Assembly (NCBI RefSeq): GCF_018977255.1
Contig: NW_024704742.1
Coordinates: forward strand, 16,308,001-16,372,000
Length of the DNA: 64,000 nt
Direction of reading: 5' to 3'
Origin: Callorhinchus milii
Lineage: Eukaryota
The first letter of the stretch is position 1. Each line of letters opens with the position of its first letter. Positions 18,068-38,500 of the stretch are shown here, in pieces. The position numbers and the translations under genes are program-made. Under the pieces are notes generated by a model that was not told where the DNA came from, did not search any database, and was given only the letters and a program-made list of their open reading frames with translations.

Positions 18068-21000
18068 TCACAGCTCAACTGAGATGGGAGAAGAGAAAAA
18101 AAATATGAAGCCATAAGATATCCTACAACTAGGAAGCCATAAAAAAATTAGACTTAAAAAAAAGGACATCATAGTAAAAATAATCCTTGCATTTGATATA
18201 GCACCTTCCACGTTAGGAAGGCGTGAAAGGCGCTATATTTTGGCGTGGGACACTGCTATACGCAATTGGCTGCCGCGTTTTGCCAACAAAATATACAGTC
18301 AATTCACTTCACAGTATATTCTGTGAAGCGCTTTGAGACGTCTCAAAGACGTGATAAGGCTCTATATTAAATGTAAGGATTATTATTAAGGGTAATAATA
18401 AATTGAACCATAACAATAAGTTTAACATTGTAACAGATTTAAAAAAGACAGCACAGGCTCAAGCTCAGAAGAGTGAAGACAATGAAACAATGGATGCAAC
18501 CACTTTACACAGAGCTGAATATTTGGAATGGATTACTAAGTGAGGAATCAAATAGCTATTCGATGAAGAAAAATCTTTGCCAGAATTATATTAGAAACAG
18601 GGGAAAAGCTGCTTGAAGGGCAGAAGATTAAAACATTTTTTGTCTATTCCACTCAATTCCTTCACAATCACAAATTTGTAAAATGGATAACTTCAAATAA
18701 TTCAAAAATATACCTTCTTCTTCACTGCTGTGGTGGGCGGGTTTACTGTCACTGCAGAAGGCTGCTGGAAAGTGCAACTCTGTGGCCAGAGGCGTCTGCT
18801 CTGGAATCGGTTCAATTTCCTTCACTATCACTGCATCACCTACTGCTTCTTCCTCATCTTCTATACAAGTAAAAGACACACACAGAAATCTGTTACACAC
18901 TGACATCCATCTGTTCATCATTATCAAGGTATGTGATTCAAAAAGTGACAGCAGCCCTACAGAATTGATACCTTTAAGTCACAACAAAAATACATATAGA
19001 TTAAATACTTGTACAAATGAAGTACGCCAGGGTATTAAGCCATCTGGGCCATGCGTCGCAATGCAAACCTTAGAAGCTTTTGAAGAATTTCATATTTTTT
19101 TTAAACCAACAATCTCCCAGATAAAATTGCTAATTTACTTCATGGCTGTTTGTGGGACACTGTACATTTGTGTAAATTAAATGCCCCATTCACCTACAAA
19201 GATATATAGTCAATACACTTTACAGTATATCCTGTAAAGTGTTTTCAGATATCCTCACATCATGAAGGGCGCTATATGAAATACAAGGCTTATTAAGTCA
19301 AAAACTCTTCTACAAGGTTTACCTTGTATTGCTACTTGGTCAATTTCAGACAGGTCGCCGAGATTGTTCACGTTTGGGTCGGACTTTCCATTTACTCCTG
19401 AACAGTTTAGTCTCGCTTCTGGCAAATGACAAACCTCAACTGTGCTCTGCACGTTCTCGAAAACGTTCTTGAAAGCCAGAGCTGTCTCCTTTAGTTGGAA
19501 CCGCACAGCTAGATCTAGAACCATGGACTTCTCCTCAGAAAAATCCAGTGTACGCCAGGCCCAGCTGTCAAACCTGTTTTTTATTTGCCGCAGCTGCAGA
19601 TTTCTTGTGATCCAGTGGTTGGCACAGCATTTATTGACTGAGCTCCACATCACCACTCGAGATATTTTTTTTCTTTTATGTTGGAAAACTTTCATTTCGC
19701 CGACTGCTCGCTCCTTCCACTGTGAGGTGGGCCTGTCAAACTGATACAGCTTTGCCCTGTTAGAGAAGAGAACATCTTGATCTTCCATCTCTGAAGAGTG
19801 ATTAACTGGCGGGCAGGATGGCAGCATTTCCTGGGACTCACGTTTGCAGTTCCCTGTGTCGCTTGCATTGCTCTCTGACACATTAACTGGTTTATTTAAA
19901 TCCAGCTTGAACTGGAAAACACCTTCTGTCCCAAAGTTAAAAAGTGGACGATGAACAACAGGAGAAGCCAAAGGGGAGCCAGCTGTAATTGTTTTCTGAG
20001 CAGCTTCATCTTTTGGGCCATCATTCTGAACTTCCACCAAACTACTGCTGTCAGATGACACGGATGCAGCACTTGGCAGGACTAATGGAGATTGCCCTGC
20101 GTGGGACAAGGAATCCTGTGCAGAAGTGAATGCTTTTGGATTAATAAAAGCATTTTCTTTGACGAAGCTCTTAGCAGCAGCTTCCAGACAAGAAACATTG
20201 CTACTGGTGTTTACATTACTGAGGTAACATGCAGGATCTTTTTCATCTTCAGATGAACGCGGAGCTTTCATACCGCATATTTGATCGCCAAAAGCAGTAC
20301 CCTCTTTATCTGAACCATTAGCAGAACCCTCAAAGGGGTTTCCGAGAAATAAAGATGCTGTGCTACAAGGCTGCAATGATGAAAAGGATTTGATCTCCGA
20401 TACCAGTGACTGACCAGTTAAGGGCACTTCAAATGTTGAAGCTTCCTTTGGTTTAGCATCAGGATTTGGTGCGACAGAGTTTGGTTGCTGGCAGGCTGAT
20501 GAAAGATCCTTGCTGGGATTCACAGAAGTAAATGCCATGTGATTGGATATGGTTGAACTCGCAGCAGGCAAAACAAGAGGATTTTTGGCAGAAGTGGCAA
20601 ATTGAGGAGAGGCAACTGAGGAGTTACTGAAATTTGCTGTAATTACCACATGGTTAGATCTAGCTGAATCTGCTCTGCTAACAGTGGATGTTTGAGGAAT
20701 TAATGGCACTTCTGATATTGAGGCTATCTTTGGTTTGACAACATTACCTGCTGTTGCAATGCTGCTGGAGTGCTGCTTGGTCAGTGAGTGGCCCTCACAG
20801 GAATCCACCTGACTGGATCCAGTTGAATTGGTTGTGGAGAAGACGAAGGGAGATACAGCAAAAGAGGTGAAGAGAGGCAATGGTATTAAACTACTAGGAG
20901 TTGGGAGAAAATAGCTCGAAAAGCCTGGTAACGTTGAGAGGAGAGAGGATGAGGGTGGTGAGAAAGCTATCGTGGAAGCTGAAGCAATTGAAGAAACAGT

Positions 21001-24000
21001 GGTTGTGACATCACCTGCGCCTTCTTCCAGTTTGGAAGGAGGGGATGACACAGAGATAGATGAAACAGACTTGTTCTCTTTCAGGTTGAAAGTACCACTT
21101 TCAAATTTCTGAGTCAGCTTAAAGTCCTTGGACTCTTCCTTTGCTGCATCTGACTCAGAAACAGGAGCTGAACTTTCCCTGTTAGTTGCATCTGTACTTC
21201 CTGTGGCTGCTAGTTTTAGGGCCAGCATCGAAAAGGGATTAGGATCCATCATGGACTCAGAATTACAGGGTGTTGCAACGGAAAATACCGGTGCTTGTTT
21301 GCATTTATAAAATGTGGAAACAGGGGGACCAAACTTACAAGGCCCTGTTTTCAGCGAACTTTTGTTTATTTCACTTCCAAAATAAAAGATTGGCGCTGTA
21401 ATGAGCGAGTCCGCAGGTTGTGCGCTGGTAGCAATGCTAGACTTTTTGCCACTTTCTTCATCGATTTGCACCTTTGTAGATTTGATGGATGCATCACAGG
21501 CAGTTTGACTGTGGGTTTCAGACGTCAAAATACCAGTTGCGTTACTTGTAGCCGATTCTTTCTTTTCACATTTGCCAAAGGAGAAACCTGCCACTGCTGG
21601 TAATGTTTGTTGATTTGCTACTTTGTTGGCTGAAGTGCTATCAGCAGCCATTCCAAATCTGAAGGATGATTCATTGGACCAGTCAGATAACCAGAAGTCT
21701 CTAGGCTTACTGACCTGACCAGGTGGGGCTGCCCATGGTGGTAAACTAAAACCTGAATTGTTGGAGTCTTCTGATTTGGATATTGAGCTGGGAAGTTCAG
21801 TTTTTGTTAAACTCATTGCACTCAGAGTGATTGGGAGAGATTCTGTGACTTTTATTGTTTCCAGACTACTACTGATGCTTGTAATTTTCTCAGAATCATC
21901 CAAGATTGAAGGCGTAAGGTCAAGCTTCTGCTCTGGTGCACTGAACAACTTATTTAAGCCAAGGGGGTTGATGTCTTAGAGTCTCTCATAGGGAACTCTG
22001 AGTCAAGAGACAAATGCAAGTCTGAATTGCCTGCAGCCTGATCACAGACCTTTTTCACGCATCGACCCACTCTAAATTGCCTAGTGCCAGACTGTTTGGC
22101 ACTGTCATATTTTTTAAAGAAATCTTTAGAATTGTCAGAAGAAGACACTGCAGACGCTGCTAAATTTTCTGTATCCACCAGTTTTTCAGACACAAAGCAG
22201 TTCCAGTCTTTTCTGCAGGAATGATAATGGTTGTAGCGCAGTTCCTGTGAAGGCAACCAAAATATTTCCCATTGAGTAAAACAGTGAGAATATATTTAGA
22301 TCTGTAAAGAACACCAATTTATTTCTCAGTAAAATAGTCATTTCTAAGTAAAATAAACCCAGTGACATTTCACTGCAATACAAAGCCGTGTGCACAATTC
22401 CCAAACAATAAAAAACCCTCAATATAATTTTTTTTTAAAAATCACCTCTGCTGAACCTGTGAAATACTTCTGATCAGCAAATTCTTTGTTTAGTCTTCAA
22501 AATGTTGGGGCCCATTTCACAATACAATACAAATTTACATTTATATAGCTTTTCAAGTGGGGAGGCCATCCAAAGGTGCTTGACAGTCCGGGTTTTGCAC
22601 CCGAGCAGAGGGTGGTAGCCAAGGGGGAGTGGGGAGGAGAAAGATTACCGAAGGTGGGGCCAAAAAGGAAAGTCTTGAGACGGACCTTGAAAGAGTTGAA
22701 GGACAGGCAAATCAGAGGGAGTCCAGGATGGAGTTCCTGAGAATGGGGGCAGATATGCTAAAAGCCCAAAAGCCGATAATGGGGGAGGGAACATGAAGCA
22801 GATAGATATGCAGTACCTTGGATGACAGAAAATCTGTATTGAACTTAACAGAGATAAGCAAAAGTAAATGTAGAGTTTGCAGGTGGCATAAATAAAGTTC
22901 AAACTATTGTAGCGTTCAATCTGATAATATTTCTTTGAATCTCTATGGATGAACATGGATGTTGGGGATGGCTTTAATTTTATTTTTATGCAGTCTAAAA
23001 GCAATCAGTAGCACTTACCTCTAGAGTCATATTCTGGTATTCCTTCATTGCTGTCAAACAATAGTGATTGTGTTCCCCATGGGGGAATTCAAATTCAAAT
23101 CGCAATTGTGGCTGAAAGAGAATTTCTGTTTTTAAATGTAATTTTATTGTTGTTTTGTTTTCCCCTCCAATTTCCCTTCTTCTCCAAAGGCATTGTCTGT
23201 TGCCAGCACAAGGTTCGACACGCATCTAGCAACCTCAGATACACCTCCCCTCAAATTGATCATCCTGGATATGTGAGCATACACTGCAAGCTTGTGTGCT
23301 CTTTAACGACAGGGAGGTCATCACAGCTAAGTCTGACCCCGCCCTCACCAGAGGCTCAAAATCTCTCACAGTAAGCCTTAAGAACTGCAGAAAGCAGCTT
23401 CCAAATGAACAATGGATTTTAAAATTGTTCAAATTTCTGCACAACCTTACATCTTAAAAATAACAATGTTGAGGTTAAGATCATAAGATATTTTGACATT
23501 TAATAATAGCCCATGAGATGTTTGGGGCCTCTGATGTTGACATATTGGATATTCAAGAACGCTGGCTGATTTTCCCCTCCCTAACCCAGAAGTGTCAGGA
23601 CCAAATTTAGCCCTCCTACTGTTGCCCTTGCTGAGATCTGGTAAGCTCTTGAATCTGGAGCTTCCAGGTCTGGAAAGCTCAATTTCACATCAGGTACTAG
23701 TTTTAATAACTGAGTTGGTGGGAGCCAAATTGAATTTAAAAGATAAAAAAACTTGCTTTGCTTCAAGAAAAGCTGTGAATCACAATATTCTGGGAGCATT
23801 CCGTTTTTAAAATAAGCTGCAAAGCTCGTCACAGAAGCTTACTTGAAACTCGACGTGTGTACCATCCTTTGGCTGCTTCCATATTTTCAACAGTTTTTTG
23901 AATTTGTAACCATCCGTGTGGTGTTTACCCGCAGAATGATCAGTATCTGGAAGAAATACACCACAGAGCGTGATCAGTCTTGCCACTCAGTCTCCAATAC

Positions 24001-27000
24001 TTTGTTTTTAATTAACAACCTGTATTTTGCAAAGAAATTAATTGAAAGCTACTGTAGGTTTTCAACACAGAAGAGGCTGTTGATCCCATTGGCTCTATAA
24101 AGGTGTTGAGATAAAATAGTGCGACGTTTTTAAAAATAAACTGGCTAGGACTGGCTAGATGGACTACAATGGTGTTTTTTTTGTCCTATTCATTCACGTT
24201 TCTATATTAGCATAAACTCATGCTGGTTTGAATTGTTCACAAGTTTTTTTACTCCTGTAAAATATTTTCTAGGTTGCACCTTCAGGTGTTGGTTGATAAA
24301 AATAAATGCATCGAGGTAATAACAACAATCCTTGCATTTGATATAGTGCTTTTCACATCTTCTAGACGTCTCAAAGCACTTCACAGAACATAGTGCAAAG
24401 TGATTTATTTGTGGGCGAAACGCGGCAGCCAATTGTGCACAGCAGTGTCTCACAAACAGTCGTGGATTGAAGTGACCAATTTTATTATTTTGTTTTTCTT
24501 GAGGGATTAAGTACAACCTAAAATACAACTTATACATTACATTTTATTCAAAGCAATCCCCTGGTAGTGGGAACATTGCTTCCAGCACCAGATCAATCCT
24601 CAATTACCATGTTTATGGAACAAGGCAATACTTTTCTTGCTAATCCTATTAAGTAGCTTGCATTGTAACAAACACGCATTGAAAGTAATAGTAATCCGCA
24701 GTTGACAGGTTTGGCTTTATTTTACAATAACTCAAACATAAATTAATACAAGTTTAGTGATTCAAATTTTACTACTGATTTATCTTCATCGAGAAAAAAT
24801 CTAATGATCACTGAAATGCTTCTAATAAGGTTACCCTCTGATAGTGTACTTACACACAGAGCAAACAAACACCACAAATAAAAGACAAAGCATTACCAAC
24901 AGGGTCAAAAACAGACATTCTGCCGAAGGTTCCAAAATGTGATGCTCAAAACATGGCATTATTTTCTATCGTAGTTTCTTTAGCGTTCTTATTTTTCCCT
25001 CCATTATTGTCCTCCTCTGCTGAAAGCCCTGATTCACACTGAGGTGGCCACCCTTTATTAACTCGCTTAACCCTACCTTCATCCAACATGCACCCACATG
25101 CGTGCGCATGCACCCACGCACACACACACACAAAGTTCCTGAGTGAGGTGAGTTCTAACATAATTTTGCCAGCTTCCACCATTTTATAGATGGCAAATGA
25201 AGTTTAATGTAGGAAAATGCAAAATAGTTCCCTTCAGCGAATAAAGAAGCCGTTTATAGTCTGGGTTCATGACTACTGGCAGCAGCAAAGCAAATGAGTA
25301 TTGATTCTACATAAACAGCTAACGGAAGTGGTCAATCAAGAATTGTCTCTGCATTTTATAACTTCCACATCAGATATGAAGATGATTGCTCTGAATTACG
25401 TGAGTGTAAAAGCACATCATTACTTGGAGGTGGGTTAGTGGAGGCTGTGAGAAATCTGACTTTCCCCTAGTCATCTGTACAATCTGTACAATTCCCCCAA
25501 ATCTTTTTGTGAATCATTGGGGTTGAATTCGTGACTGGTGTCTATCTGTATCTTGCTGGTATAAAATATATTTTATCCCAGCAAGAGGCGGGAGGATTGT
25601 CTCATCTCCACTTGACACCTCATGTGGAATTTAGTTCAGGTGTCAGCTTGGCTCAGTTGGTTGCACTCTCGCCTCTAAGTAAAGCAAGTGGGTTTGAGCC
25701 CCACATTGGGACTTTGAACTCGTAGTCCAGGCTGATTCTCCAGTGCACTATTGGAGATGCTGTCCTTCAGATGAGACATTAAACTGTCGTCTCCGTCTGT
25801 CTGTTCAGATCTCTGTTAACGATCCCTTGGGACTATTCAAAAAGAGAAGAGAGTTTCTCCCACTGTCCTGGGCAACAATCTCCCAAATTAAATTTGTCAT
25901 TCACTTCATTGCTGTTTGTAAAACATTGCTGTGCGCAAATCGGCTGCTGCATTCATCTACAAATATACTGTCCCTACACTTCACATTAAAATCCTGTGCT
26001 TTGAGACATCTGAGATGTGATAAGGTACTTTATCAAATGGAAGGATTATTACTTATATCAGAAACTCAGGATGTGCAGAAAGGTGAGCTACACACATACA
26101 TCTTGCCACTCAAGGGTACATCTTGAGGTTCTAGAATACACATCTCTCGCTCCTTCAATTGAAATGGGACTAAAGAACCTGGAGACCGATAGCAGCAAGA
26201 AATAGTTCACTTGCGATAACGGAACTAGTTCCAAGGTAAACTACGTGGAGTCCTGTAGCTCAGTGGTTAGAGCACTCGCTTTGCAAGTGAGAGACCTGAG
26301 TTCAATTCCAGGCAGAGGGCGAAACCTTGGGCAAGTTTCCTTACTCCACACAGAGCCTAATAATAATCCCTCCAAAACCCAAAACAATAATAAGTTGGTC
26401 ATTTTCAATCTACGACTGTTTGTGGGACATTGCTGTGCGCAATTGGCTGCCGCGTTCGCCCACAAATATTCAAATAGTCAATTCACTTTACAGTGTGTTG
26501 TGTGAAGCACTTTGGGACGTCCTCCCGACGTGAAAAGCGCTATATCAAATGCAAGGATTATTATTATTATTATTACTCCAGCAATTGTAGACGTCACACA
26601 ATCATGCACTGGACAAGACCACAAAATATCTCAAAACAAATCACATCAGGAACATTGTTTTTCTGTTAAAATGTGAAACAACACAAAAATAAAAGTTAAT
26701 CAATGGAAACCAAATAGCATACCTGAATTCCAAGTAGGTTCTTTTATCTCAGTTAATTCAAGTTCAGAGATGCTATCCAGCAAAGGCGTTATTAAAAACT
26801 GTCTTGGTGCAGGACCAGCAAATTCACCACATTTCTTAAAACTAGGCATGACAGCAAGGTTGCTCTTCACTCTTGTGAAAAAAGACCAGGTAAAGATACC
26901 AAAAAGTATGATTATAAGCAGCAATTGCAACAACCTGTTCTATAATTTTCAAGAGTAAGCTACCTTACTGATAAACACATTTGATATCTTCCTAACAAAA

Positions 27001-30000
27001 CAAGACCCACAGCAAGAATTTTGAGTTCATGTTCACTTCAAAACACCGACCAGCACGCAGGAAGCTAAATGGCTATGTATTGATCATCAGTTCACCACCA
27101 AAATAACTTCATACGCACTGAAATATGGCAGTTACCATTTTGAAATGCCGATGGAGCCAGCTACATACATTTGCAGCGAACGCAAAAACAGCGAGTGGAA
27201 ATTGCACCCCATTTTCATGCCCTATTTGGACTCTCAAACCACCCCATTATAATGGAGCTCAACGGTATTTGTTTTATGGAAAGGCAGGTTTGATAGTGTG
27301 GATGACATTTTCTCAATCTATGCTTCAAGTTATGCAAAGAGGTTACAACAGATGAAAAAGTCACCTGAACATTTATTATAAGAGTTCAAGCTCCTATTGC
27401 ACAGTCAACTAGTAGCAGTTGAACTCCTTTCCTATCTCCTATGGCAACATGTTAATTCTCCAATACACTGAGTCATATTTAGTGTTGTATTTCTTCCAGG
27501 TCAAAGTGAGCTGTAAATATCCATTGGTGAAGTTAGTTATTATTAGGATGGTCTCCTAACGGGATAGCAGAATGTCTGGATGTTAAGACATGCCGATCAA
27601 CGATAACTTGGGAGTCTTCTGTCAATCGCAATTTGAATCCTCCCATCTATATCCAGGAGCCCCTCGTGGCTGAATGCAGCCACTGGACAAACAGAAGGCC
27701 CGAGCGAGTACATTCAGCAGCGACCAGCGCGGCATTTTGCCCCGAGTAACCTGGTTTTCATCCGAATTAATTGGCATATTTAAAATAGGTAAGAATACAA
27801 ATGAATTGGGGCCGTGCGTTTTGTTCGATTTACCCGTTTGGGTTAACTGCCTTGGGACCTTGGGACGTCCTCCCGACGTGAAAGGCACTCTACAAATGTA
27901 ATCTTGTTGTTTTTGTTAACTGGCATCCAGCAAAAGCGCACTCCACAGTGTGTGTATAGATATATATATATATATTTAAAAGATGTGGGAAAAAGAACTG
28001 AAAGTAACAAATAAACCAAGACATCTAACACGTCAAATGGGATTTGTAAAAACTTGAAGCATAAAAGTACAATTACCTTTCGTTTAAGTTACAAGCCACC
28101 TGTGAATGAAAGAACAATGTGTTGAATGGGGTACAGCAGAATTATGTTACCTCTAATTATTACCTCTTATTTCCCTTCTTAGCTTAGAAAGTGTTAAATT
28201 TTATGGAAATCTCACATCTACTTTCAACTCTCCGGAACACTGTTGTGGAGAGCCTCCCAGTCCTTCTGGCAGCATCTACAATTCTAGACCAGATGATGTG
28301 AGTTGGGAAATTAGGTCACAGCAGGGAAAGAACCAGTGGAAAACAACAAAATCATTACAAAAAATACGGTTGTTCTTGAAGCTTGACGGGTAGTTCAAAC
28401 TAACACTGAGAGCCTTCAATGGATAAGGGTGAGCTCATTGCGGTTCTCGCACACACTCATGGCGTTTACACTGCAGGTCGCACCAGTCCTAAAAACACTT
28501 ACTCTAAACAGTGCAGGAGTGACGCTTCAGCATGATTCCCATTGTCTGAAGCCGATTATACCTATCAGGCTGAACATGCTTGGACTCTTTCCTCTTGAAA
28601 AGAGCAGGGTAAGGGGTGACCTGATAGAGGTCTTTACAATGATGAAAGGTTTTGATAGGGTAGACATAGGGAAGATGTTTCCACTTGTGGGGAGACCAAA
28701 ACCAGGGGCCATCAATATTAAATAGTCACAAATAGATCAAATAGAAGAAAGAAGAAATTTCTTCACATAGAGGTTAGTGGAAATGTGGAATATGCTACCA
28801 CAAGGAGTTGTTGAGGCAAATCACAAGGATGTATTTAAGGGAAAGCTAGATAAGTACATGAGGGAGAAAGGAATAGAAGGTTATGCTTGAAGGCTTAGTT
28901 GAGGAAGGGCAGGAGGCTCATGTGGAGCATAAACACCGGCATAGACCAGTTGGCTGAATGGCCTTTTTCTGTATAATATATTCTATTTTAGCTGCAAGTT
29001 TAGTAGAATTTCATCATCAAACTCATGGTAATTCATTGCCCAGAGTGCACATTCCAAGCTATCTCTGGGATTTCCATGTGTAGTTGGGATGCATGGAATT
29101 CTCAGTTTGGTTTGGATACTCTTAAGCATGGTGATGAGCTTCCACATGTGTCTATCCAAAAAAAATGCAGCAAACACGGTATACTCAGGCAGCAGGGGAT
29201 CCATAACTCAGCTTTTCATTAATGCGGTTTACTGAATGGTATCGGTAGGGCTTAATGCTTTTTGCAGTGTAAAACCAGCAGGACTCTGAGGGGAATGAGA
29301 TGATGTGCCTTCACTAGGTGCTCTACACATACTTTCAACTATTTTTCATCTTTGCATTGCTTTGAAGAGGAACATGAACAAGAAGAAACTATTCTCCTTT
29401 TCTTTCTCCCCTTTGTCAACCACGTCGCATAACCTACCATTCACTATCCTTTCTAGCAAGATCAAACAAATAAACATTGAGTTAGTGTGGTCAGGTCATT
29501 TCCCTGTGCTAGTCACAGTATTTTCATGAAATCCTCTAAAGAATATTAAGTTAATCTCTGAAGGGCAACACCTGTTACACAACCTTCAATGAAGGTTCAA
29601 AGTGGTGAGAAAACGGTATACAACAGTATACAAGATTTCAGACACACTGGTAAAAAAAAAATCTCATATTTTATGTGTTTTCACCCCCTCTTTCCTAAAG
29701 TTTCTGAACCAGGATGGATTTATATAGAAACTGGCCACCATTCAGTCCATTTCCAAAGTAACCATTCCTGACATTCACGGCCAAGCAACTGGCCAGTAAT
29801 AGCTGACTGTCGGGAGTGTAAGGAGCTTCACAACTCAATACCTACATATTTAAAGGAGGATCATTGGACAGTTTTCAGAAGTGAGAACTCTGATAAATTA
29901 TTTTTTTCTTCCTCTCTTGCTCAGAAGCACAGAGGCAAATTTTAATTGACCAACACGACCTAAAATAACCTCAGATAACTCAGTGAAGACAACAGACCAA

Positions 30001-33000
30001 CATCGAGCCCTCCTTGTTTGTAAGACTTAATTCCACATGAGACAGTGCCAGTGGATAACAACAAACTTCAATCGTCCTTAACCCATAATAAACATGGATC
30101 TGAGCACTCACAAGAGACCTAAATAAAAGTTCATGAACAGGAAGGCAAAAAGCTAATGTTGTGACTGGTAACTTATTTCCAATAACTCTACTGCAGTTCC
30201 TCTTCACAATTTTCATCAACCTGAGTATTTGCACAAAAAGACTTGGAAGCAGCTTTTTAAACAAAATACAATGACTTCCAGTACAATTGGTTGCATAATT
30301 GCTGAAAAGAGTGAATAAGACAAACCTTACCATGAGAAAGTTGATGGGATTGCATTCATTCACCAGTTTCTCGCACTCCTGCAGCTGCTCTACGACAGTT
30401 CTCTGTTGCGATCGCCTTCTCTCCAATCGAGCCTTGCGTTCACACCACTTCCACTCCTTCTCCTTCTGAATCCCATCCAGCAGCTTCTCCTTCTTCAATT
30501 GGACTCTCTTCAAAATCTGATCAAACTTGGTCTTTACCATCTCCTCCTCGTACTCTAAAATGTTCTAAATAAAGGAACACATCAATCGTGCATGTTGTGC
30601 CTATACTTCTTTTTCGATCACCTGAGAATCTGACCCGAGTAGAAACCCAGCACCCAGCTTAAGAGTTTTCAAACTAAGCATGAACATTTCTCTGCCTGGA
30701 ATAATCCTAGCGCGATCTGTGGATGGATGCATTCTGCTCATCAAATTCCAGAAAGTATGAGATTCAGGTTGCGGAGAGTCAAGGCTTGATGACTCCAAGC
30801 CTTGGCATGTTGGGGGTTCTGCCCGGAGTTTAACCAGCTAAAACCACATAGCTTGCCACTGAATTGTAAGCTTTGTTTCTTGTCTAGGTAGGTCAATGCT
30901 ACCTATTAAGTCTTTGGCTTGCAGGTAACAGGACTCAAGTGGGAAGAATTCCTCCCCCTCCAAATCCTGCCAATGGGCCAGGCTGGCTGATCTGTCATCA
31001 GCGGTGCCTCGGAGTACCCTGGACCCATCTGGCTCAGGAACTAGATGACTAAGACCACCACAGAGATCTAACATTCTATTGCTAAACATGTCAACTTGCA
31101 ATCAGTTTCACCATTTACATTCACTAAATTTAAGAAATATAATTGATAAATATCCAACACTTTCTGATGCCTTGAATCAGAATTCTGTCTTGGTCTACCT
31201 ACAGTATGCATGTAATTGGGAATTCAACAGTAATTGGGGAATGTAGCATTTATATGAATTTTATTGATTGGAATGATTCTCACAATCTGAATTCAGTACT
31301 AAAAGTTAATGTGTTGATAGTCTTGTGTGAAATTACTTTCCTGGAAATTTAAGTACGCATTGTAGAAATTCAGCAGATTTACACAAAGCGAGTCATTAAA
31401 ATTGCCCACCTCCACTTCTACCTATCCCCTCAGGACACTAAAACGCTCATCCCTGCCTGCTCACCAGATCCACAGCTCTTCCCTACACAGGCTGTAGACT
31501 GTCAAGAACTCTGTAACATGTGTCCTCTCCTGCTCCTCGAACACATCACCCCATCCTCGTTCAGCTCCACTGGCTCCCCACTCCCTGGTGGATTGAATTC
31601 AAGATCCTCATTCTGACCTCAAATTCCTCCATGATCTTGCCCAGCTTACCTCAGCAACCTCCTTCAAGCCTATCGACTCGGCTGTTACCTTCACTCATTA
31701 AACTCTGGCCTGCTTCATGTTCCCTGCCATATCCGCCCAACTTGTCGACAAGTGGGCTTTTGAGATATTCTATCCCTTATCTGTGGAACTCCTAGCCTGG
31801 AATCTCTCCGACATGCTCCCTCCCCTCATCCAAAGCCAATCTGAAGACATTTGACTGTGCTTTCGGTCATCTTTCCTCTTCCTACCACCCTCAGTTCCAA
31901 ACCTTGCTCGACTGCCCAGACAGCAGTGTCACATGCTTTGAGATATCCCCCTGACAAGAAAGATGCATATTGTATAAAGCAGCAGACAAAATAGATAACA
32001 TTTAACATAACAAAGTGCAGATGGAAAGAGTGATCTGGAACAGAGAAGATCTGGTCCACCTTGCCCAACAATCCAATGGAAACTCTGGGTCAGTATCCTT
32101 AGAAGTCAAGGCACTTCCTACCTCTTTAACAGATGGATTGTCAGAAATTTCAGTCTTCATTCTGTCATTTAATTGCCTCAGTTCCTTCAGGTTATTGAAG
32201 AAAGCAAGCTGAAAAAGAGAGGGAAATGGTTATCCTTTTCCATTTAGCAGGCATGGAATGCAAAACGGCAAGCATTTACTCTGATTTATCTAGCGCTTTA
32301 GGATAAGCATTCAATCTCAACTACATGCCAACATAAATAGGCAACACACTCCCAGACAGGTAATGTCCTCACCAATTTCATCGCCTCGCAGAAATAAATT
32401 TGGGACTATTTTTCCCTTCTCCCAGGCACTGGTGCTACTGTTACCCTCTGTGTTTTATGTGCACATGTGTTTATGTGTTTTTTTGTGGAGTCCTGTAGCT
32501 CAGTGGTTAGAGCACTCGCTTTGCAAGTGAGAGACCTGAGTTCAATTCCAGGCAGGGCGAAACATTGGGCGAGTTTCCTTACTCCACACAGAGCCTAATA
32601 ATAATCCCTCCAAAAAACAAAACAAAAAAAAATTATAATAAATTGGTCATTTTCAATCTACGACTGTTTGTGGGACATTGCTGTGCGCAATTTGGCTGCC
32701 GCGTTCGCCCACAAATATACAGTCAATTCACTTTACAGCGTGTTCTGTGAAGCGCTTTGGGACGTCCTCCCGACGTGAAAAGCGCTATATTAAAATGCAA
32801 GGATTATTATTATTATTACCACTTGATGACAAGTAGGTATCATTATAGCCAGTTCTGATGCTGCGTGTCCCCAAAGTCCAGAAGTGGTATTTGCATAAAG
32901 CTCGGGTGTGGAAGCCCTGGCTGATTTTCTCCTCTTTAGCTGAGAGGTACTGAGGCCATTTGTAACTCCACTTATACATACTTGGCCATAATCAAATAAC

Positions 33001-36000
33001 TTGTCACAGACAAGGAATCAAACTTAGAACCTCTGCAGTGAGTTTGTCTCAACTACTGCTTGCTGAATAAGTAATGCCTCTTTCATTGCTAAAGCTGTAC
33101 CTTTGACTGTATGATTCTATCTCTTGCACTACTTCGAAAGTGTATTGGATGCTTTTTGTACAATAAAGTAGTTCAACTATTAGTCTGATATCACAACATG
33201 TAGGTAGCACTGTAGGTAAAAACACACACATCAAACACTATTCCAGCAAACGCACCAAAAGTACCAACACCAAAGTCATGCATGTTGACTAAAGCATGCT
33301 TCATATAACTGAAGTCCTTTGTCACAAGTTCCATGATATGAATATTCTATCATCTGGAAGTGATGGGATAAGTGAGTTAAATGAAGGGCTTGAAAAGATT
33401 ATTCACAACATGATTCACTATTAGTGACTCAGTCAGTTACTGGGAATTCAGTATTGCACAACAAACTATTTCCCTTCCGTTCCTACAGCGCAGGGTTACG
33501 CAAATTGACTGTAACATACTACCTCTTAATCTTCAGGATTCCTTGTTAAAAATTCTGAGCTGCTACAATATTGATAATTCCCATTGAGAACTACCTTTTT
33601 TTCCCCGATCCCACGTAGTAATAATAGAACAGTATAATGCTAATTTTAAAATTTCAGAGGCTGGACAGTACCCACCACTGCTTCAACTATTAGTTTGTCT
33701 AGGGCACTATTTTTCAGGCTCAAATTTAAATCTATTCAGAAAATCTGTCCTGGTTATGCTACAAGCTTTCAGAAGCAGCTGCACTGCCATTTTCCTCAAA
33801 CAATCAGCAAACTCAGTGAATCTGCATGGTTAGTTTTATTTTTTTAAATTAAAATTAAACCACAATTATAAACAGGAGACTAAAACAAAACTGCTTTCTC
33901 ATCATTGTAGCCAACTGTTGTTGCAGGAACTCACTCCTAATTGCAATGTTTGGGACGTCCTCCCGACTTGAAAGGTGCAATACAAATGTAATCTTGTTGT
34001 TGTTGTTCCCTGCTTAACGTGCCAGATTCAGCCCATTTCAGAGGCAGGTCAGATTTTTATGTCAATCCAACTTCCGAAAACATGGCTTTTGACATCCTTG
34101 TACAATGCAGCTTAAGTGCAGTCACTGCACAGCACATCAGTTACTGTGGAATCATTCTCTTACACACATTGCAATGTGCAACTGACTATCAGGTTGTTTA
34201 TTTATTGTTAGTGCTTATTCCCTCTCACCCCCACCTCATCTAGGATGTCCTCTCATCAACAACAAAATTACATTTATAAAGCACGTTTCAAGTCAGGAGG
34301 AAATCCCAAGGCACTGGACAGTTTAGGGTTTGCACCCGAGCTGGGGGTTGGAATCAAGAGGAGTGGGAAGGTGGCCGAAGGCACGGTCAAGGAGGAAGGT
34401 TTTGAGATGGGCCTCGAAGGAAGCAAGGGAGAGGTGAGACGGATGGAGTTTCCAGAGGATGGGGGTAAAGGCCTGACCGCTGCCAATAGTAGAAAAAAAA
34501 CTGCCAAAAAAAACTCATTAAGAGCGAGAAAATGGAGTATGAGGGTAAGCTAGCTAAGAACATTAAGTCTGATTGTAAAAGTTTTTACAAATATATTAAG
34601 AGGAATAGGCTAGTGAGGGTAAATGTAGGTCCACTTGAGTCAGACGGGAGAAGTTGTAATGGGGGATAAGGACATGGCAGAGTCCCTAAATGGGTACTTT
34701 GCATCTGTCTTCACCCTAGAAGACACAACAAGTCTGCCAACAATAGGGATGTATCAAAGGGATAAGGACAGGGAGCAACTTAGGGAAATTTTCATTAGTA
34801 GAGAATTGGTGCTAGGGAAACTGTTAGCACTAAAAAGTGACAAATCCCCTGGTCCGGATGGCTTGCATCCCAGGGTTTTAAAAGAGGTAGCTTATGAGAT
34901 AGTGGAGGCCTTATGTATGATCTTCCAAAATTCCTTGGATTCTGGAACAGTCCCCATGGATTGGAAGATCGCAAATGTCACACCACTATTTAAAAAAGGT
35001 GGAAAGAAAAAGATACAGAACTATAGGCCAATCAGTCTCACATCAGTGATAGGAAAAATTTTAGAATCGTTGATTAAGGATGTGGTAGTGCGGTATTTAG
35101 GGACACAATATAATTAGGCCAAGTCAACATGGCTTTACAAAAGGGAAGTCATGTTTGACAAATCTCAGAGAGTTTTTTGAGGATATTTCCAGTAAACTAG
35201 ATAAGGGTGAATCAGTGGATGTGGTCTATTTGGACTTCCAGAAGGCATTCGATAAGTTGCCGCATAATAGGTTAGTCCAAAAGTTAAGGGCCCATGGAAT
35301 TGGGGGGAGCATATTAACGTGGATTGGGGAATGGTTAACTGGTAGGAAACAAAGAGTAGGGATAAACAGGTCCTTTTCAGATTGGCGGGTTGTGACTAGT
35401 GGAGTGCCACAAGGATCAGTCCTTGGGCCTCAGCTATTTACCATCTACATCAACGATCTAGATGAGGACATCGAAGTTAATATATCTAAATTCGCAGATG
35501 ACACAAAACTAGGAGGAAGTGTTGTTGAGTTGTAACTTTTTCCCCATTCGTCCCAACCGTTGTCTTACAAACAGACCATACACCGTGGATATATCCAATG
35601 TTGAGATTTAATTGCAATTAAAAGAGCTGATTCAAGAACAGTCAACAGTCTCCCCAGTCTCCCAAGTAGAGCACCTGACAGTCCAAAAGAATGAGCTGCT
35701 TTTGGTCAGTTAAAGCAGCCTTTTTATCCCCAAAAGTGCTCAAGGTCATAAAGCATACAAAGGCAATTAAAAAAAACATTATCAATCATGTGGTTCCAAC
35801 AACTATTCGAATGGTGACGTCAATCAATCTATATCTCTAAACAAGGTTAAATGTCATCTACTTAATTAGTATCTATTCGTGTTGATTATTATACTTTAAA
35901 AAATCAATCAAATATAATTGGCATAAAATATGTACCTGATTAATACCGTTGTCTAAAGTATACAAGATATAATCTAAAGCTATCTAACAAGAATACAACC

Positions 36001-37950
36001 TTTAAATTTATAACACAGAGTAAGAAATAATGAGGGAAGGGAGCTCAGGTTAGGGGAGGATTCAGGGATGTTAGAGGCATAAGCTTATCTCCAGATGGTG
36101 TTTGTGTCAGACAATGTCATATTCATTTCAAAGTTACAGAAGTTACTGCTCCTCTGCTTCCATAGAATGTCCAGCCAGATAAGGATGTAGCTGGCATTGC
36201 CAAGTCTGAGTTTTCCCAGGACTTGTTTTTTTAATGTTTCAGCTAATGTTTGATTTAAAAAGGCATACAATTATTTCTAGGTATAAAAAAAATTCTACAA
36301 TTTCACTACAATTTCATTACAATTTCACTACAATTTCATTACAATTTCACTACAATTTGACATTGTCAGCACAAAGGACGACATTAAAAAAATGCATCAA
36401 GACATAGATAGGTTAGGTGATTGGGCAGGTAGGTGGCAGATGAAGTATAATGTAGGGAAGTGCGAAGTCATCCACCTAGGTAGCAAAAACAGTAGAGCGG
36501 GTTTTTTTTAGAAGGGGAGAGACTGGAATGTTTTAGCGTCCGGAGGGACTTGGGTGTCCTTGTACACCAATCACAGAAAGTTAGTCTGCAAGTGCAGCAG
36601 CAATCAGGAAGGCGAATGGTATGTTAGCATTCATTATGAAAGGATTAGAGTATAAGAGTAGGGAAGTCTTGCTGCAACTGTATAGGGCCCTGGTGAGACC
36701 ACACCTGGAATACTGTTTGCAGTTTTGGTCTCCTTATTTAAGGAAGGATGTACTTGCCTTGGAGGGGGTGCAGCGTAGATTTACTAGGTTAGTACCAGGG
36801 ATGAAGGGGTTGAGTTACGAGGATAGGCTGACCAATTTGGGCCGATATTCTCTAGAATATAGAAGAATTAGAGGGGATCTTATAGAAACCTATAAGATCA
36901 TCAAAGGTCATGATAGAGTAGATAGTGGGAGATTGTTTCCCCTGGTTGGAGAAACTAAAACCAGTGGTCACAATCTTAAGATTACAGGCCAGCTCTTTCG
37001 CACTGAGTTGAGGAAGAACTTCTTCACTCAAAGGGTGGTGAATGTATGGAACTCACGCTCAGTCCTTGAACATATTCAAGACTGAGATAGATAGATTTTT
37101 TATTGCAAAAGGGATTAAAGGATATGGGGATAAGGCAGGGTTATGGTATTAGCTGGAGTTAGATTAGAAGATCAGCCATGATTGAATGGCGGGGCAGGCT
37201 CGAAGGGCCGAATGGCCTACTCCTGCTCCTACATGTTATGTTATGTTAGTACAGGCAAGGCGGGGGACATGGAGCAGACCAGTGCCCGCCGAGCGGAAGG
37301 AGCAGACAAATTGGTATGGTATGCCATGCAGGCTGTTGTTTGGTCTGTTGTGCTGGTGCAGTGACGGGGCTGACCGCCATCGCTTTGCATTTAAACAGTA
37401 CCTTCTCCTCCTGGTAGGTGACGTCCACGAGGTTGACGGAGTGGAAGACCCCAGTGTGCTCCTCAGACACGCATTGGCCGCAAGCAGCCAGTTTGCAGAC
37501 CTTGCAGAAGAGCTGCATGTCTCTGTGGGAGTGCTTGGAGCACAGTGCCCGCAGCCCAGCGCCCCCCTGCCCTCCCGCAGGGGAGCCGCTCCGCAGCCCA
37601 TCCTCCTCCTCCTCTACCTCCCCCTCCTCCAGCAGACACACCCCATGGGCAGAGCCACAGCCACCATCCCTCTGACCCCTGAAGATCTTGACCACTTCCA
37701 GCAGGGTGGTGTTGACGGACAGGTTGGCCGCTCCCTCGGGGATGAAGTTGTTTTTCCTGCACAGAGGACACTCCAGTTGGCTGTTGCTCCAGATGTTGCC
37801 GTCCCCGGCGCTGCTCCAGTCCTGGCCGCTCAGGGACCGGGTCACACACTCCAGGATGCATTTCTTGCAGAAGTTGTGGGAGCAGACGGGCAGCGTGACG
37901 GGACTCTCAAACACTGACAGGCACACAGCGCACGTCAGGCTGGCCTCCAT
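18068..37950 (-). CDS. TRIM (RING-Bbox-coiled-coil) / nucleoporin chimeric protein: RBCC + GLEBS + FxFG region + RanBD + IR1-like motif
   Basis: Phase-compatible GT-AG exons: 37950-37402, 32208-32122, 30564-30331, 28099-28077, 26871-26723, 23946-23843, 23111-23019, 22244-~22071 (or read-through to a frameshift near 21960), 21948-19323, 18860-18714, 18078-18068 (TGA). About 1,400 aa. Confidence 0.8.
18714..18860 (-). CDS. RanBP2 IR1-like exon ([28 protein letters not shown]...SSEEE)
   Basis: 147 nt, phase 1-1; resembles RanBP2 [29 protein letters not shown]...SEEEE. Confidence 0.82.
19323..21948 (-). CDS. giant exon: Ser/Thr-rich FxFG region and Ran-binding domain (about 19444-19785)
   Basis: 2.6-kb open frame; [24 protein letters not shown]...QWKERAVG...CANHWIT...W...DFSE...LAVRF...FKNVFE; donor CAAG|gtaaac. 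Confidence 0.9.
21954..22244 (-). CDS. exon starting ELRYNHY (end of GLEBS); frame closes at TAA 21954-21956 unless spliced or frameshifted
   Basis: tcacag|GAACTGCGCTAC; candidate phase-0 donors at 22070 (AGA|gtgggt) and 22049 (AAG|gtctgt). Confidence 0.75.
   Translation of the reverse strand, partial: ELRYNHYHSCRKDWNCFVSEKLVDTENLAASAVSSSDNSKDFFKKYDSAKQSGTRQFRVGRCVKKVCDQAAGNSDLHLSLDSEFPMRDSKTSTPLA
23019..23111 (-). CDS. GLEBS-motif exon ([31 protein letters not shown])
   Basis: ctctttcag acceptor, GAG|gtaagt donor, 93 nt; [12 protein letters not shown] resembles Nup98 [16 protein letters not shown]. Confidence 0.85.
23843..23946 (-). CDS. exon ending ...KDGTHVEFQ (start of GLEBS region)
   Basis: tttcttccag acceptor, CAA|gtaagc donor, phase 1-0, open frame. 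Confidence 0.75.
25640..26052 (+). mobile_element. old Deu-domain SINE (SacSINE1/AmnSINE1-like)
   Basis: tRNA-like head, then gatccc.tgg.actattc..aagag...gagtt.ctccc..tgtcctgg core; decayed copies at about 11830-12110, 12920-13300, 42530-42760(-), 51680-51897(-), 54990-55410, 58500-59180(-), 62870-63120, 63740-64000. Confidence 0.75.
26245..26575 (+). mobile_element. tRNA-derived SINE, short young subfamily
   Basis: A/B boxes, tRNA-Ala(TGC)-like arm, near-identical to copies at 32485, 40124, 50633, 59615. Confidence 0.92.
26723..26871 (-). CDS. TRIM exon 5, linker ([10 protein letters not shown]...[16 protein letters not shown])
   Basis: phase 2-1; pyrimidine tract plus aag acceptor; CAG|gtatgc donor. 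Confidence 0.75.
28077..28099 (-). CDS. TRIM exon 4, 23-nt mini-exon (VACNLNER)
   Basis: cacag|GTGGCTTGTAACTTAAACGAAAG|gtaatt; a 23-nt phase 0-2 exon after the coiled coil is characteristic of many TRIM genes. Confidence 0.8.
28565..28980 (+). mobile_element. CR1 3' fragment
   Basis: [28 protein letters not shown]. Confidence 0.85.
30331..30564 (-). CDS. TRIM exon 3, coiled coil
   Basis: 234 nt, phase 0-0, E/K/R/L-rich, ends NPINFLM|gtaagg; size typical of TRIM coiled-coil exons. Confidence 0.88.
31400..31980 (+). mobile_element. decayed L2 3' fragment
   Basis: [17 protein letters not shown] remnant. Confidence 0.7.
32122..32208 (-). CDS. TRIM exon 2, coiled coil ([20 protein letters not shown]...)
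   Basis: tttttcag acceptor, GAG|gtagg donor, 87 nt, phase 0-0. Confidence 0.85.
32485..32818 (+). mobile_element. tRNA-derived SINE, short young subfamily
   Basis: same head, body and tail as the 26245 copy. Confidence 0.92.
34488..37248 (+). mobile_element. CR1 LINE, 5'-truncated, decayed RT, interrupted by a solo LTR
   Basis: [61 protein letters not shown]; several frameshifts; (ATGTT)n tail. Confidence 0.95.
35523..36362 (-). mobile_element. solo LTR nested in the CR1
   Basis: TG...CA ends with imperfect inverted termini; TSD GTGT/TTGT; removal restores CR1 frame [22 protein letters not shown]. Confidence 0.75.
37402..37950 (-). CDS. TRIM exon 1: C3HC4 RING + B-box2
   Basis: [10 protein letters not shown]...CSHNFCKKC...CPLC (RING); CSKH...[13 protein letters not shown]...H...H (B-box2); good Kozak context GTGATGG; donor AAG|gtactg. 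Confidence 0.93.
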
Positions 37951-37959
37951 CACACCACA

Positions 37960-38500
37960 CCACACTCTCTCTCTCTCTCTCTCTCACACACTCACTCTCT
38001 CTGTCTCACACCCACCCATTCAACCTCTCTCTCTCTCTCTCTCTCACACACACTTTCTCTGTCTCTCTCTCTCTCTCACACTCACTCTTTCTGTCTCTCT
38101 CTCTCACACTCACTCTCTCTGCCTCACACCTACTCACTCTCTCTCTCACACACTCACTCTCTCTCTGTCTCACACTCTCTCTGCCTCACATCCACACTCA
38201 CTCTCTGTCTGTCTGTCTGTCTGACACCTACACTCACTCTCTCTCTCTCACACACTCACTCTCTGTCTCACACCCACCCATTCACCCTCTCTCTCTCTCT
38301 CACACACTCACTTTCTCTGTCTCTCTTTCACACTCACTCTCTCTGTCTCACACCCACACTCTCTCTCTGTCTCACACTCTTTCTCTCTCACACACTCACT
38401 CTCTGTCTGCCTCTTTATCTCTTTCACACTCACTCTGTCTCTCTCTCTCACACTCTCTCTCTCAGTCTCTCTCTCACTCACTCTCTCTCTCTCTCTCTGT
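37960..38500. repeat. compound (CT)n/(CA)n microsatellite directly upstream of the TRIM ATG
   Basis: visible dinucleotide tracts. Confidence 0.95.

What the first reader, a model, noticed from the sequence alone, without database searches (positions are those of the whole stretch)
18068..37950. TRIM E3 ligase fused to Nup98- and RanBP2-type nuclear pore modules (RBCC-GLEBS-FxFG-RanBD-IR1)
Seen: about 11 minus-strand exons with compatible phases join a canonical RING/B-box/coiled-coil, including the typical 234-nt and 23-nt TRIM exons, to a C-terminus with no SPRY, FN3, NHL or PHD domain. It carries a GLEBS-like motif, four FxFG motifs, a Ran-binding domain and an IR1-like motif instead. No promoter-like or ATG-bearing first exon is evident between the halves. 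Known: GLEBS of this type comes from Nup98 and binds Rae1; RanBD followed by IR1 is the RanBP2/Nup358 arrangement; TRIMs gain target specificity by C-terminal domain capture (TRIMCyp; I recall a zebrafish finTRIM with RanBP2-derived RanBD and cyclophilin, to be verified). Inference: modules from two different nucleoporins were assembled on one TRIM scaffold. I know of no description of this architecture. It could be an E3 for nuclear transport factors, or an integrated-decoy antiviral sensor for viral proteins that attack Rae1-Nup98 or FG nucleoporins.
Basis: partly seen in the sequence, partly recalled or inferred. Interest (0 to 1): 0.95.

Follow-up and report, generated by a model that had tools for sequence, protein, structure and literature searches.

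The report
TRIM ligase carrying nuclear-pore docking modules
This is one real, ancient vertebrate gene in which a TRIM-type ubiquitin ligase carries the Rae1-docking motif of nucleoporin Nup98 and, in sharks, rays and chimaeras, also a Ran-binding domain and SUMO-ligase motif copied from RanBP2; no paper I could find describes it.

Summary
Ten minus-strand coding exons (37950-17562, all GT-AG) encode a 1447-aa protein: RING, B-box, coiled coil, a Nup98-type GLEBS motif, an S/T-rich stretch with four FxFG, a RanBD and an IR1-like motif. RNA-like contigs from three studies join most exons. They do not show the E4-E5 junction; public gene models and orthologues supply that link.

Two corrections. 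That error explains why current RefSeq splits the gene into "TRIM63" (509 aa) and "RanBP2-like" (891 aa).

The gene is not lineage-specific. At least 16 cartilaginous fishes have the full architecture. Coelacanth, amphibians, reptiles, birds and echidna have RBCC+GLEBS without RanBD/IR1. The GLEBS and IR1 exons keep the borders or phases of Nup98 and RanBP2, which indicates exon shuffling.

IR1 is degenerate in this species but intact in elasmobranchs. FG motifs are sparse.

Six literature searches found no description. The likely function, a dimeric E3 docked on Rae1 and RanGTP, is inferred and untested.

The parts
37402..37950 (-). Coding exon 1 (549 nt), ATG at 37950. RING at 37932-37759, B-box at 37545-37435.
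   Evidence: Pfam. Exon borders. RNA-like contig pieces 37402-37558 and 37402-37962.
32122..32208 (-). Coding exon 2 (87 nt), start of the coiled coil.
   Evidence: tblastn of P0001. AG/GT borders. X5 record 20 has 87 letters between its exon 1 and exon 3 pieces.
30331..30564 (-). Coding exon 3 (234 nt), coiled coil.
   Evidence: X5 record 20. The model shows one long helix, residues 174-305.
28077..28099 (-). Coding exon 4 (23 nt).
   Evidence: Only AG/23 nt/GT candidate in the intron that encodes VACNLNE. The frame is kept.
26723..26871 (-). Coding exon 5 (149 nt), linker after the coiled coil.
   Evidence: X5 record 19 lies on 26723-26871 and on exon 8.
23843..23946 (-). Coding exon 6 (104 nt). 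It ends ..EFQ, at the position where the preceding Nup98 exon ends ..KFN.
23019..23111 (-). Coding exon 7 (93 nt, phase 0 at both ends): first half of the GLEBS motif. Skipped in isoform X2.
   Evidence: Joint 23094/23843 in X2 (table 5c).
19323..22244 (-). Coding exon 8 (2922 nt here, 2923 in reads). Second half of GLEBS at 22244-22209; S/T-rich region; FxFG at 21663-21652, 21585-21574, 21387-21376 and 19941-19930; RanBD at 19791-19444.
   Evidence: X2 record 9 and X5 record 19 cover it.
21963..21967 (-). C5 homopolymer with one base missing in this assembly (reads have six). This is the cause of the split RefSeq models.
   Evidence: table 4: the extra base is in X2, X5, X7 and X11 at full depth..
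18714..18860 (-). Coding exon 9 (147 nt, phase 1 at both ends): acidic stretch plus the IR1-like motif, degenerate in this species.
   Evidence: Pfam IR1-M 14-15 bits. Alignment with RanBP2 IR1 and elasmobranch copies. Joint 18860/19323 in 3 RNA-like runs and not in the DNA run.
17562..17596 (-). Coding exon 10 (last 11 residues plus TGA).

Best explanation
This is a single, intact, single-copy gene of a chimaera; by protein identity the species is Callorhinchus milii. It belongs to an old jawed-vertebrate family of TRIM-type RING E3 ubiquitin ligases. The substrate-recognition end of these ligases was built by exon shuffling from nucleoporin genes.

Shown here: the gene structure, the domains, their homology to Nup98 and RanBP2, the shared exon borders, and the conservation across species.

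Inferred mechanism. The RING/B-box/coiled-coil part forms the usual TRIM dimer with ligase activity. The GLEBS hairpin docks the protein on the mRNA-export factor Rae1, in competition with or beside Nup98. Skipping the 93-nt exon 7 would switch that docking off. In cartilaginous fishes the RanBD binds RanGTP, with a conserved FxFG just before it. The IR1(-M) motif, intact in elasmobranchs and decayed in Callorhinchus, recruits SUMO-RanGAP1/Ubc9.

The ligase would therefore act on transport or export complexes at or near the cytoplasmic face of the nuclear pore.
For: One gene. All 10 exons are GT-AG and in frame, and give P0010 with 5 residue differences. The joint 18860/19323 is in 3 RNA-like runs of 3 studies and absent from the DNA run. 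X5 record 20 lies on E1 and E3, with 87 unplaced letters between (the length of E2) and 18 after. X5 record 19 lies on E5 and E8, with 198 letters between (E6+E7 = 197 nt). X2 record 9 lies on E8 and E9, and a joint at the same depth links E7 to E6. The RefSeq split sits at the frameshift.

Family. RING+B-box+RanBD(+IR1-M) is listed by precomputed or fresh Pfam for 16 chondrichthyan proteins. RBCC+GLEBS proteins occur in coelacanth, amphibians, reptiles, birds and echidna. Over 30 aligned members: RING 30/30, B-box 30/30, GLEBS 13/30, RanBD 10/30, IR1-M 8/30.

GLEBS. The family profile against PDB hits 3mmy_B, 4owr_B, 7byf_B and 7vpg_B at E about 4e-11, covering chain residues 5-56 of 56. G394, E413, E414, R416 and Y420 are invariant in 30 sequences. 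Exon borders match the own Nup98.

RanBD. Pfam scores are 89-107 bits. Identity among chondrichthyans is 0.41-0.64 in this domain, against about 0.18-0.44 in the S/T-rich part. The TRIM RanBDs form one clade (100/99) that follows the species tree.

IR1-M. Elasmobranch copies score 54-68 bits and are nearly the RanBP2 IR1+M motif.

Long helix at residues 174-305, pLDDT 84-92 over 220-300.

NUP98 residues 181-224 suffice for RAE1 binding, and a free GLEBS titrates RAE1 from the pore (PMC2133102, passages).
Against: No binding was tested, and no Rae1, Ran, Ubc9 or SUMO sequence was available for a complex prediction.

GLEBS is below Pfam's cut-off in most members scanned: 17 bits in Heterodontus and Cetorhinus, and none at E 0.01 in Scyliorhinus or Pristis.

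The RanBD clade sits on a long stem (1.48 changes per column), so its function may have shifted.

IR1 in this species lacks the LPPTFF..YKNKPGY and M parts.

FG motifs are sparse and only one is conserved in 16 of 16 chondrichthyans; turtles have none.

The E4-E5 junction is not shown in the read tables and rests on public gene models and orthologues.

The RNA label of the runs is the tool's guess, though the GT-AG joints absent from DNA support it.

The monomer model is poor overall (mean pLDDT 57).
Confidence: 0.55

Rival explanations
1. Two neighbouring genes, as in the current RefSeq annotation: a 509-aa 'TRIM63' and an 891-aa 'RanBP2-like' protein. On this reading the fused models are read-through artefacts.
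For: The current models XP_007889661.2 and XP_042193473.1 are separate. Leucoraja is also annotated in two pieces, 403 aa and 1178 aa.
Against: P0008 ends ..TSTPLA* exactly at the 1-bp deletion, and P0009 starts at an internal Met of the same exon. Contigs of all 4 runs carry the missing base and run through the site. GLEBS and RanBD lie in one exon. Sixteen other chondrichthyan models are continuous, including Amblyraja, a close relative of Leucoraja.
Confidence: 0.03
2. The gene is real, but the nucleoporin-derived pieces are relics. The protein acts as an ordinary TRIM ligase with a long disordered tail, and GLEBS, RanBD and IR1 no longer bind Rae1, Ran or Ubc9.
For: GLEBS is below threshold in many members. 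IR1 has decayed in Callorhinchus. RanBD/IR1 are absent in all sarcopterygian members. The RanBD stem is long.
Against: Five GLEBS positions are invariant across 30 sequences that span cartilaginous fishes to echidna. RanBD and elasmobranch IR1-M are far better conserved than the flanking S/T-rich sequence.
Confidence: 0.2
3. Antiviral guard or decoy. The TRIM-GLEBS-Rae1 complex copies the Rae1-Nup98 surface that many viral proteins attack, so that they are caught and ubiquitinated.
For: Viral proteins (VSV M, SARS-CoV ORF6, MHV-68 ORF10) bind Rae1-Nup98 GLEBS (PMC12666860, passages). TRIMs repeatedly gain viral-target domains, as in ftr52 and TRIMCyp (PMC3137616). Human TRIM34 co-precipitates RAE1 (PMC13189347, passages).
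Against: The gene is single-copy here. The N-terminal 25 residues are 85-91% identical from sharks to birds, which is unlike fast-evolving restriction factors. There are no data on interferon induction or expression.
Confidence: 0.15
4. The GLEBS binds Bub3, the paralogue of Rae1, rather than Rae1, and the ligase works in mitotic checkpoint control.
For: From my own knowledge (recalled, not tested here): GLEBS motifs of Bub1 and BubR1 bind Bub3, and Rae1 and Bub3 are related WD40 proteins.
Against: Pfam and PDB matches are to Nup98 GLEBS only, and the exon borders are those of Nup98.
Confidence: 0.07

Closest known systems
Zebrafish ftr52 (finTRIM RBCC-RanBD-CypA; PMC3137616, passages read)
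   Same: A TRIM RBCC joined at exon level to a piece of a RanBP2-like gene that includes a RanBD.
   Different: ftr52 belongs to a different TRIM lineage and carries a different RanBP2 piece (RanBD plus cyclophilin; no IR1, no GLEBS). It has a premature stop in all fish tested and is reported in one species. The present gene is intact and conserved across cartilaginous fishes.
RanBP2/Nup358
   Same: RanBD preceded by FxFG and followed by IR1(-M). The IR1 exon has the same phases (1/1). The best PDB stretch is RanBP2 2231-2529, which I recall covers its third RanBD.
   Different: The present gene has one RanBD instead of four, and no N-terminal domain, zinc fingers, IR2 or cyclophilin. The RanBD is only 40-42% identical to those of this genome's own RanBP2 and sits on a long branch.
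Nup98
   Same: The GLEBS hairpin, with identical exon borders at three junctions (..KFN|PPTG...KSLE|ELRLEDY in Nup98..EFQ|PQLR...MTLE|ELRYNHY here).
   Different: The present gene has no GLFG repeats (0 GLFG in 32 members). No Nup98 autoproteolytic-domain family appeared in the Pfam scans.
TRIM59, TRIM13 and MuRF (TRIM54/55/63)
   Same: These are the nearest RBCC relatives by automatic naming and by language-model features (0.86, a lead only).
   Different: This genome has its own single-exon TRIM59-like and TRIM13-like ORFs elsewhere (my labels, from recalled likeness to human TRIM59 and TRIM13), only 25-28% identical to this RBCC. They have hydrophobic C-termini rather than GLEBS/RanBD.
TRIM5-CypA (TRIMCyp)
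   Same: The principle is the same: a TRIM gains a new target-binding end by capturing a foreign domain (cited in PMC3137616).
   Different: TRIMCyp arose by retrotransposition and is recent. Here intron positions of the donor genes are kept, so the DNA was shuffled with its introns, and the event is hundreds of millions of years old.
Human TRIM34-RAE1 interaction (PMC13189347, passages)
   Same: A TRIM protein associated with Rae1 and the nucleocytoplasmic transport machinery.
   Different: TRIM34 has no reported GLEBS, and its interaction may be indirect. There is no homology beyond the RBCC.

Membership tests
TRIM / RBCC E3 ligases | N-terminal RING finger with all zinc ligands | tested here: met
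   Pfam zf-C3HC4 and zf-RING_UBOX are above cut-off. C7, C10, C23, H25, C28, C31, C61 and C64 are invariant in 30 sequences.
TRIM / RBCC E3 ligases | B-box zinc finger after the RING | tested here: met
   Pfam zf-B_box scores 24.4-27.5 bits against a cut-off of 24.1 and is found in 30/30 members.
TRIM / RBCC E3 ligases | Long coiled coil directly after the B-box | tested here: met
   The AlphaFold model has helices at 174-205, 208-280 and 285-305 with pLDDT up to 92. PDB chain 8amr_A (TRIM3) aligns over residues 5-300. Pfam TRIM_CC matches only 2/30 members at E 0.01. Dimerisation was not tested.
TRIM / RBCC E3 ligases | Ubiquitin ligase activity | not testable with these tools
   This needs an in vitro ubiquitination assay.
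Nup98-type GLEBS (PF21240) | Match to the family profile at its curated cut-off | tested here: met
   27.7 bits (P0010) and 29.1 bits (P0008) against a cut-off of 27. Single exons alone reach only 21.5 bits. 13/30 members match at E 0.01. The family profile against Nup98 GLEBS chains gives E about 4e-11.
Nup98-type GLEBS (PF21240) | Binds Rae1/Gle2 | not testable with these tools
   No Rae1 sequence could be obtained, so the complex was not predicted.
Ran-binding domain (PF00638) | Match to the family profile | tested here: met
   106-107 bits against a cut-off of 23.2, covering profile positions 5-121 of 122.
Ran-binding domain (PF00638) | Binds RanGTP | not testable with these tools
   The long stem branch leaves this open.
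RanBP2 IR1-M SUMO E3 module (PF12185) | Match to the family profile at its cut-off | tested here: not met
   14-15 bits against a cut-off of 25 in this species, and no hit at this locus in the genome-wide scan. The feature is met in elasmobranch orthologues (54-68 bits).
FG nucleoporins | Dense FG-repeat region | tested here: not met
   There are 6 FG in 1447 aa, not enriched. Four FxFG are enriched, but only one is conserved in all 16 chondrichthyans. No GLFG.

The most novel reading that the evidence does not exclude
This would be an undescribed class of TRIM ligase, present since the first jawed vertebrates. It impersonates the Nup98 docking site for Rae1. In cartilaginous fishes it also carries RanBP2's RanGTP- and SUMO-RanGAP1/Ubc9-docking modules. 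That would place ubiquitin and SUMO ligase functions on one protein that polices mRNA-export and transport complexes, or traps the viral proteins that attack them. An alternatively spliced 93-nt exon would act as the Rae1 on/off switch. My searches found members only in cartilaginous fishes and in coelacanth, amphibians, reptiles, birds and a monotreme. They found none in therian mammals or ray-finned fishes, which would explain why the family has never been studied.
Probability: 0.2. Interest if true: 0.85.

Novelty: new variant of a known kind. Interest (0 to 1): 0.62.

Why it matters
TRIM ligases are sorted into classes by their C-terminal domains. None of the classes I know of uses nucleoporin modules, and none of my six searches found one.

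A conserved ligase with a Nup98-type Rae1-docking motif gives a direct, testable link between ubiquitination and the Rae1-Nup98 mRNA-export hub, which many viruses target. It can be tested in chicken, Xenopus and shark material.

The shared exon borders make it a clear case of exon shuffling from two different nucleoporin genes onto one scaffold.

On the practical side, the current RefSeq models for this species are split by a 1-bp assembly error. Orthologues also carry misleading automatic names such as "serine-rich adhesin", "mucin" and "TRIM59-like".

Tried and rejected
The look-up of sequencing runs listed no holder on record as RNA. The RNA label of X1-X10 is the tool's guess.

The read tables shown do not contain a contig that joins E4 to E5 (most rows were not shown).

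Its top hits were family members or generic RING/TRIM proteins. Of the 20 proteins looked up by name, none came from ray-finned fishes, therians or cyclostomes; P0174, P0175, P0178 and P0182 carry no name. This is not proof of absence.

Pfam on 150 ORFs of 48 aa or more from 1-16854 gave 0 hits. On 114 ORFs from 49244-64000 it also gave 0 hits. DDX60 synteny could therefore not be checked inside the window; short exons would be missed.

The RanBD tree could not name the donor RanBD. This genome's own RanBP2 RanBD3 is nearest, without decisive support.

The ESM Atlas gave MuRF-like clusters at 0.86, which is a lead only.

The monomer model has mean pLDDT 57, so no fold search was run.

The search of earlier findings gave nothing.

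The paper on the Rae1-Nup98 structure (PMC2890840) is not held, so contact residues are not cited.

A phmmer search of a toad orthologue against PDB did not list Nup98 at E 0.001.
Full report
**What is in the window**

The best protein match of the large minus-strand ORF is XP_007889662.1. This is a 1416-aa Callorhinchus milii model named "E3 SUMO-protein ligase RanBP2-like isoform X2", 98% identical, and its precomputed Pfam list already pairs RING families with Ran_BP1. The window lies on contig C1 of a 991-Mb assembly.

I mapped that protein and its 1447-aa sister isoform P0010 (XP_007889661.1) back onto the window. This gives ten coding exons on the minus strand:
- E1 37950-37402
- E2 32208-32122
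- E3 30564-30331 (234 nt)
- E4 28099-28077 (23 nt)
- E5 26871-26723
- E6 23946-23843
- E7 23111-23019
- E8 22244-19323
- E9 18860-18714
- E10 17596-17562

All have AG/GT borders and compatible phases. Their translation differs from P0010 at 5 residues.

**Domains**

On single exons Pfam gives RING (1e-7), B-box (3.5e-6), Ran_BP1 (1e-30), IR1-M (0.015) and Nup98_GLEBS (2.5e-4). On the spliced protein GLEBS reaches the curated cut-off (27.7 and 29.1 bits against 27). IR1-M does not (14-15 bits against 25).

PDB searches agree. RanBP2 chains score up to 1.7e-94, and the best stretch is RanBP2 2231-2529, which I recall holds the third RanBD. TRIM3 matches across residues 5-300. Nup98 GLEBS chains and the RanBP2 IR1 chains 3uin_D and 1z5s_D match weakly.

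An AlphaFold model of the first 509 residues has a nearly continuous helix from 174 to 305, with pLDDT up to 92. This is the TRIM coiled coil. The rest of the model is poor (mean pLDDT 57).

There are four FxFG motifs against 0.15 expected, and 0 of 20000 shuffles reach 4. FG as such is not enriched.

**One gene or two?**

The protein's 90% cluster holds four records. Two are the older fused isoforms. The other two are current models: "TRIM63" (509 aa) and "RanBP2-like" (891 aa).

The 509-aa model ends ..TSTPLA* at a C5 run at 21963-21967. The 891-aa model starts at an internal Met of the same exon.

I laid contigs of four runs from four studies on 18000-37962. All four, including the genome-sized DNA run X11, carry one extra base at that run, at full depth (table 4). 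So this assembly lacks one base, either through error or as a private allele, and the annotation split is a consequence.

**Read support for the exon joins**

The tool only guesses that the three smaller runs are RNA. However, they carry a CT..AC joint at 18860/19323 that the DNA run lacks. Their contigs show the following:
- X5 record 20 lies on E1 and E3. It has 87 unplaced letters between, which is the length of E2, and 18 after.
- X5 record 19 lies on E5 and E8, with 198 letters between (E6+E7 = 197 nt).
- X2 record 9 lies on E8 and E9. At the same depth there is a joint 23094/23843 whose in-between letters equal the 5' end of E7.

The E2, E6 and E7 contents of those gaps are my inference from their lengths. 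No contig joining E4 to E5 appears in the rows shown. That link rests on the gene models, old and new, and on the orthologues.

**The family**

A search with residues 1-520 found 104 proteins of 795-2533 aa. Sixteen are from other cartilaginous fishes, both sharks and batoids. They are 48-58% identical over the query region, 974-1669 aa long, and have RING/B-box plus Ran_BP1 and mostly IR1-M in the precomputed Pfam lists. Fresh scans of six of them confirm RanBD in five (89-97 bits) and IR1-M in five (54-68 bits). Two skates were added by cluster look-up; Leucoraja is annotated in two pieces and Amblyraja in one.

The remaining hits, and 54 shorter ones, come from coelacanth, caecilians, salamanders, frogs, turtles, crocodilians, squamates, birds and echidna. 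They align through the RBCC and GLEBS and then through an S/T-rich region. They lack RanBD and IR1.

An exhaustive HMMER pass with the 509-aa piece found 34 representatives at E 1e-30 or better, then a drop to generic RING/TRIM hits. None of the 20 proteins I looked up by name is from ray-finned fishes, therian mammals or cyclostomes, and four have no name. This is a negative from limited searches.

Names are "uncharacterized", "serine-rich adhesin for platelets", "mucin", "TRIM59-like" or "TRIM75".

The gene is single-copy in this genome. The genome has its own single-exon TRIM59-like and TRIM13-like ORFs elsewhere, only 25-28% identical to this RBCC. I labelled them from recalled likeness to human TRIM59 and TRIM13.

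**Where the modules came from**

In a 30-sequence alignment G394, E413, E414, R416 and Y420 of the GLEBS are invariant. The profile of that alignment hits the Nup98 GLEBS chains of four Rae1 complexes at E about 4e-11 over nearly their whole length.

This genome's own Nup98 has the borders ..IKFN|gt, ag|PPTG...KSLE|gt and ag|ELRLEDY... The present gene has ..VEFQ|gt, ag|PQLR...MTLE|gt and ag|ELRYNHY... So the borders and phase 0 are the same at three junctions.

The IR1 exon of this genome's own RanBP2 and E9 both start and end in phase 1 within acidic runs.

Elasmobranch copies keep almost the whole RanBP2 IR1+M motif. Callorhinchus has lost much of it: [13 protein letters not shown] in place of LPPTFFCYKNKPGY, and no M part.

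The TRIM RanBDs form one clade (100/99) that mirrors the species tree. It sits on a long stem, with RanBP2's third RanBD nearest but not decisively so.

Both modules therefore entered as genomic DNA with their introns. The GLEBS capture predates the split of cartilaginous and bony vertebrates. The RanBD-IR1 capture predates the split of chimaeras and elasmobranchs, or is older and was later lost in sarcopterygians.

**How it probably works (inference)**

A TRIM dimer with RING ligase activity is docked on Rae1 by the GLEBS. NUP98 residues 181-224 suffice for RAE1 binding, and a free GLEBS titrates RAE1 off the pore and blocks poly(A)+ RNA export (PMC2133102, passages). A GLEBS-bearing ligase should therefore compete with or parallel Nup98.

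Exon 7 holds half of the motif, is 93 nt in phase 0, and is absent from 9 of 32 representative models. Those nine span cartilaginous fishes, amphibians and alligator. That points to a conserved splice switch.

In cartilaginous fishes the RanBD is preceded by an FxFG that is conserved in 16 of 16 sequences. Together with IR1-M it adds RanGTP and SUMO-RanGAP1/Ubc9 docking.

The rivals are relic modules, an antiviral decoy, and Bub3 binding. They are listed with their odds in the Rival explanations section.

**Comparison and novelty**

Zebrafish ftr52 (RBCC-RanBD-CypA) is the nearest precedent. It belongs to another TRIM lineage, uses another RanBP2 piece, and carries a premature stop (PMC3137616, passages). 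Human TRIM34 co-precipitates RAE1 without a reported GLEBS (PMC13189347, passages).

Six full-text searches found no description of a TRIM with GLEBS, RanBD or IR1 beyond ftr52. The term sets were: finTRIM+RanBP2; GLEBS+tripartite motif; TRIM+Ran-binding domain+B-box+RanBP2; GLEBS+RING finger+B-box; Callorhinchus+TRIM+RanBP2; and GLEBS+E3 ubiquitin ligase+Rae1+TRIM. Subscription journals are largely not covered.

I rate it a new variant of a known kind: a TRIM class defined by nucleoporin-derived modules.

Noticed in passing
window 21963-21967: One base is missing from a homopolymer in this assembly relative to contigs of four runs. It splits the public gene models into 'TRIM63' and 'RanBP2-like'.
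   Followed up: yes
window 45191-48562 (+): A 1123-aa open frame with endonuclease and reverse-transcriptase domains (LINE-type retrotransposon), upstream of the gene. Observed only.
   Followed up: partly
window 34629-37085 (+), inside intron 1: Broken reverse-transcriptase frames of a retrotransposon (RVT_1 at 35101-35535), with very high contig depth.
   Followed up: partly
window 18068-18400, 24200-24540, 26240-26630, 32400-32840, 40180-40520, 42180-42580: Copies of one short interspersed repeat whose frames read ..[16 protein letters not shown].. They show extreme depth in all runs and cause many false joints.
   Followed up: partly
window 37965-39700: A long CT-rich, low-complexity tract (GC skew -0.73) directly upstream of the start codon, with a run of 31 N in the window.
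   Followed up: no
orthologues (alignment): The 93-nt GLEBS exon is missing from 9 of 32 representative models, from cartilaginous fishes to alligator. This suggests conserved alternative splicing.
   Followed up: partly
G000:C11:17439160-17439408 and G000:C4:15523231-15523461 (L021, L022): Single-exon TRIM59-like and TRIM13-like ORFs with hydrophobic C-termini. They are the nearest RBCC paralogues in this genome, at 25-28% identity.
   Followed up: partly
Leucoraja erinacea models: The orthologue is annotated as two proteins (403 aa 'TRIM63-like' and 1178 aa), while the related Amblyraja has one of 1488 aa. This may be a second annotation split.
   Followed up: no
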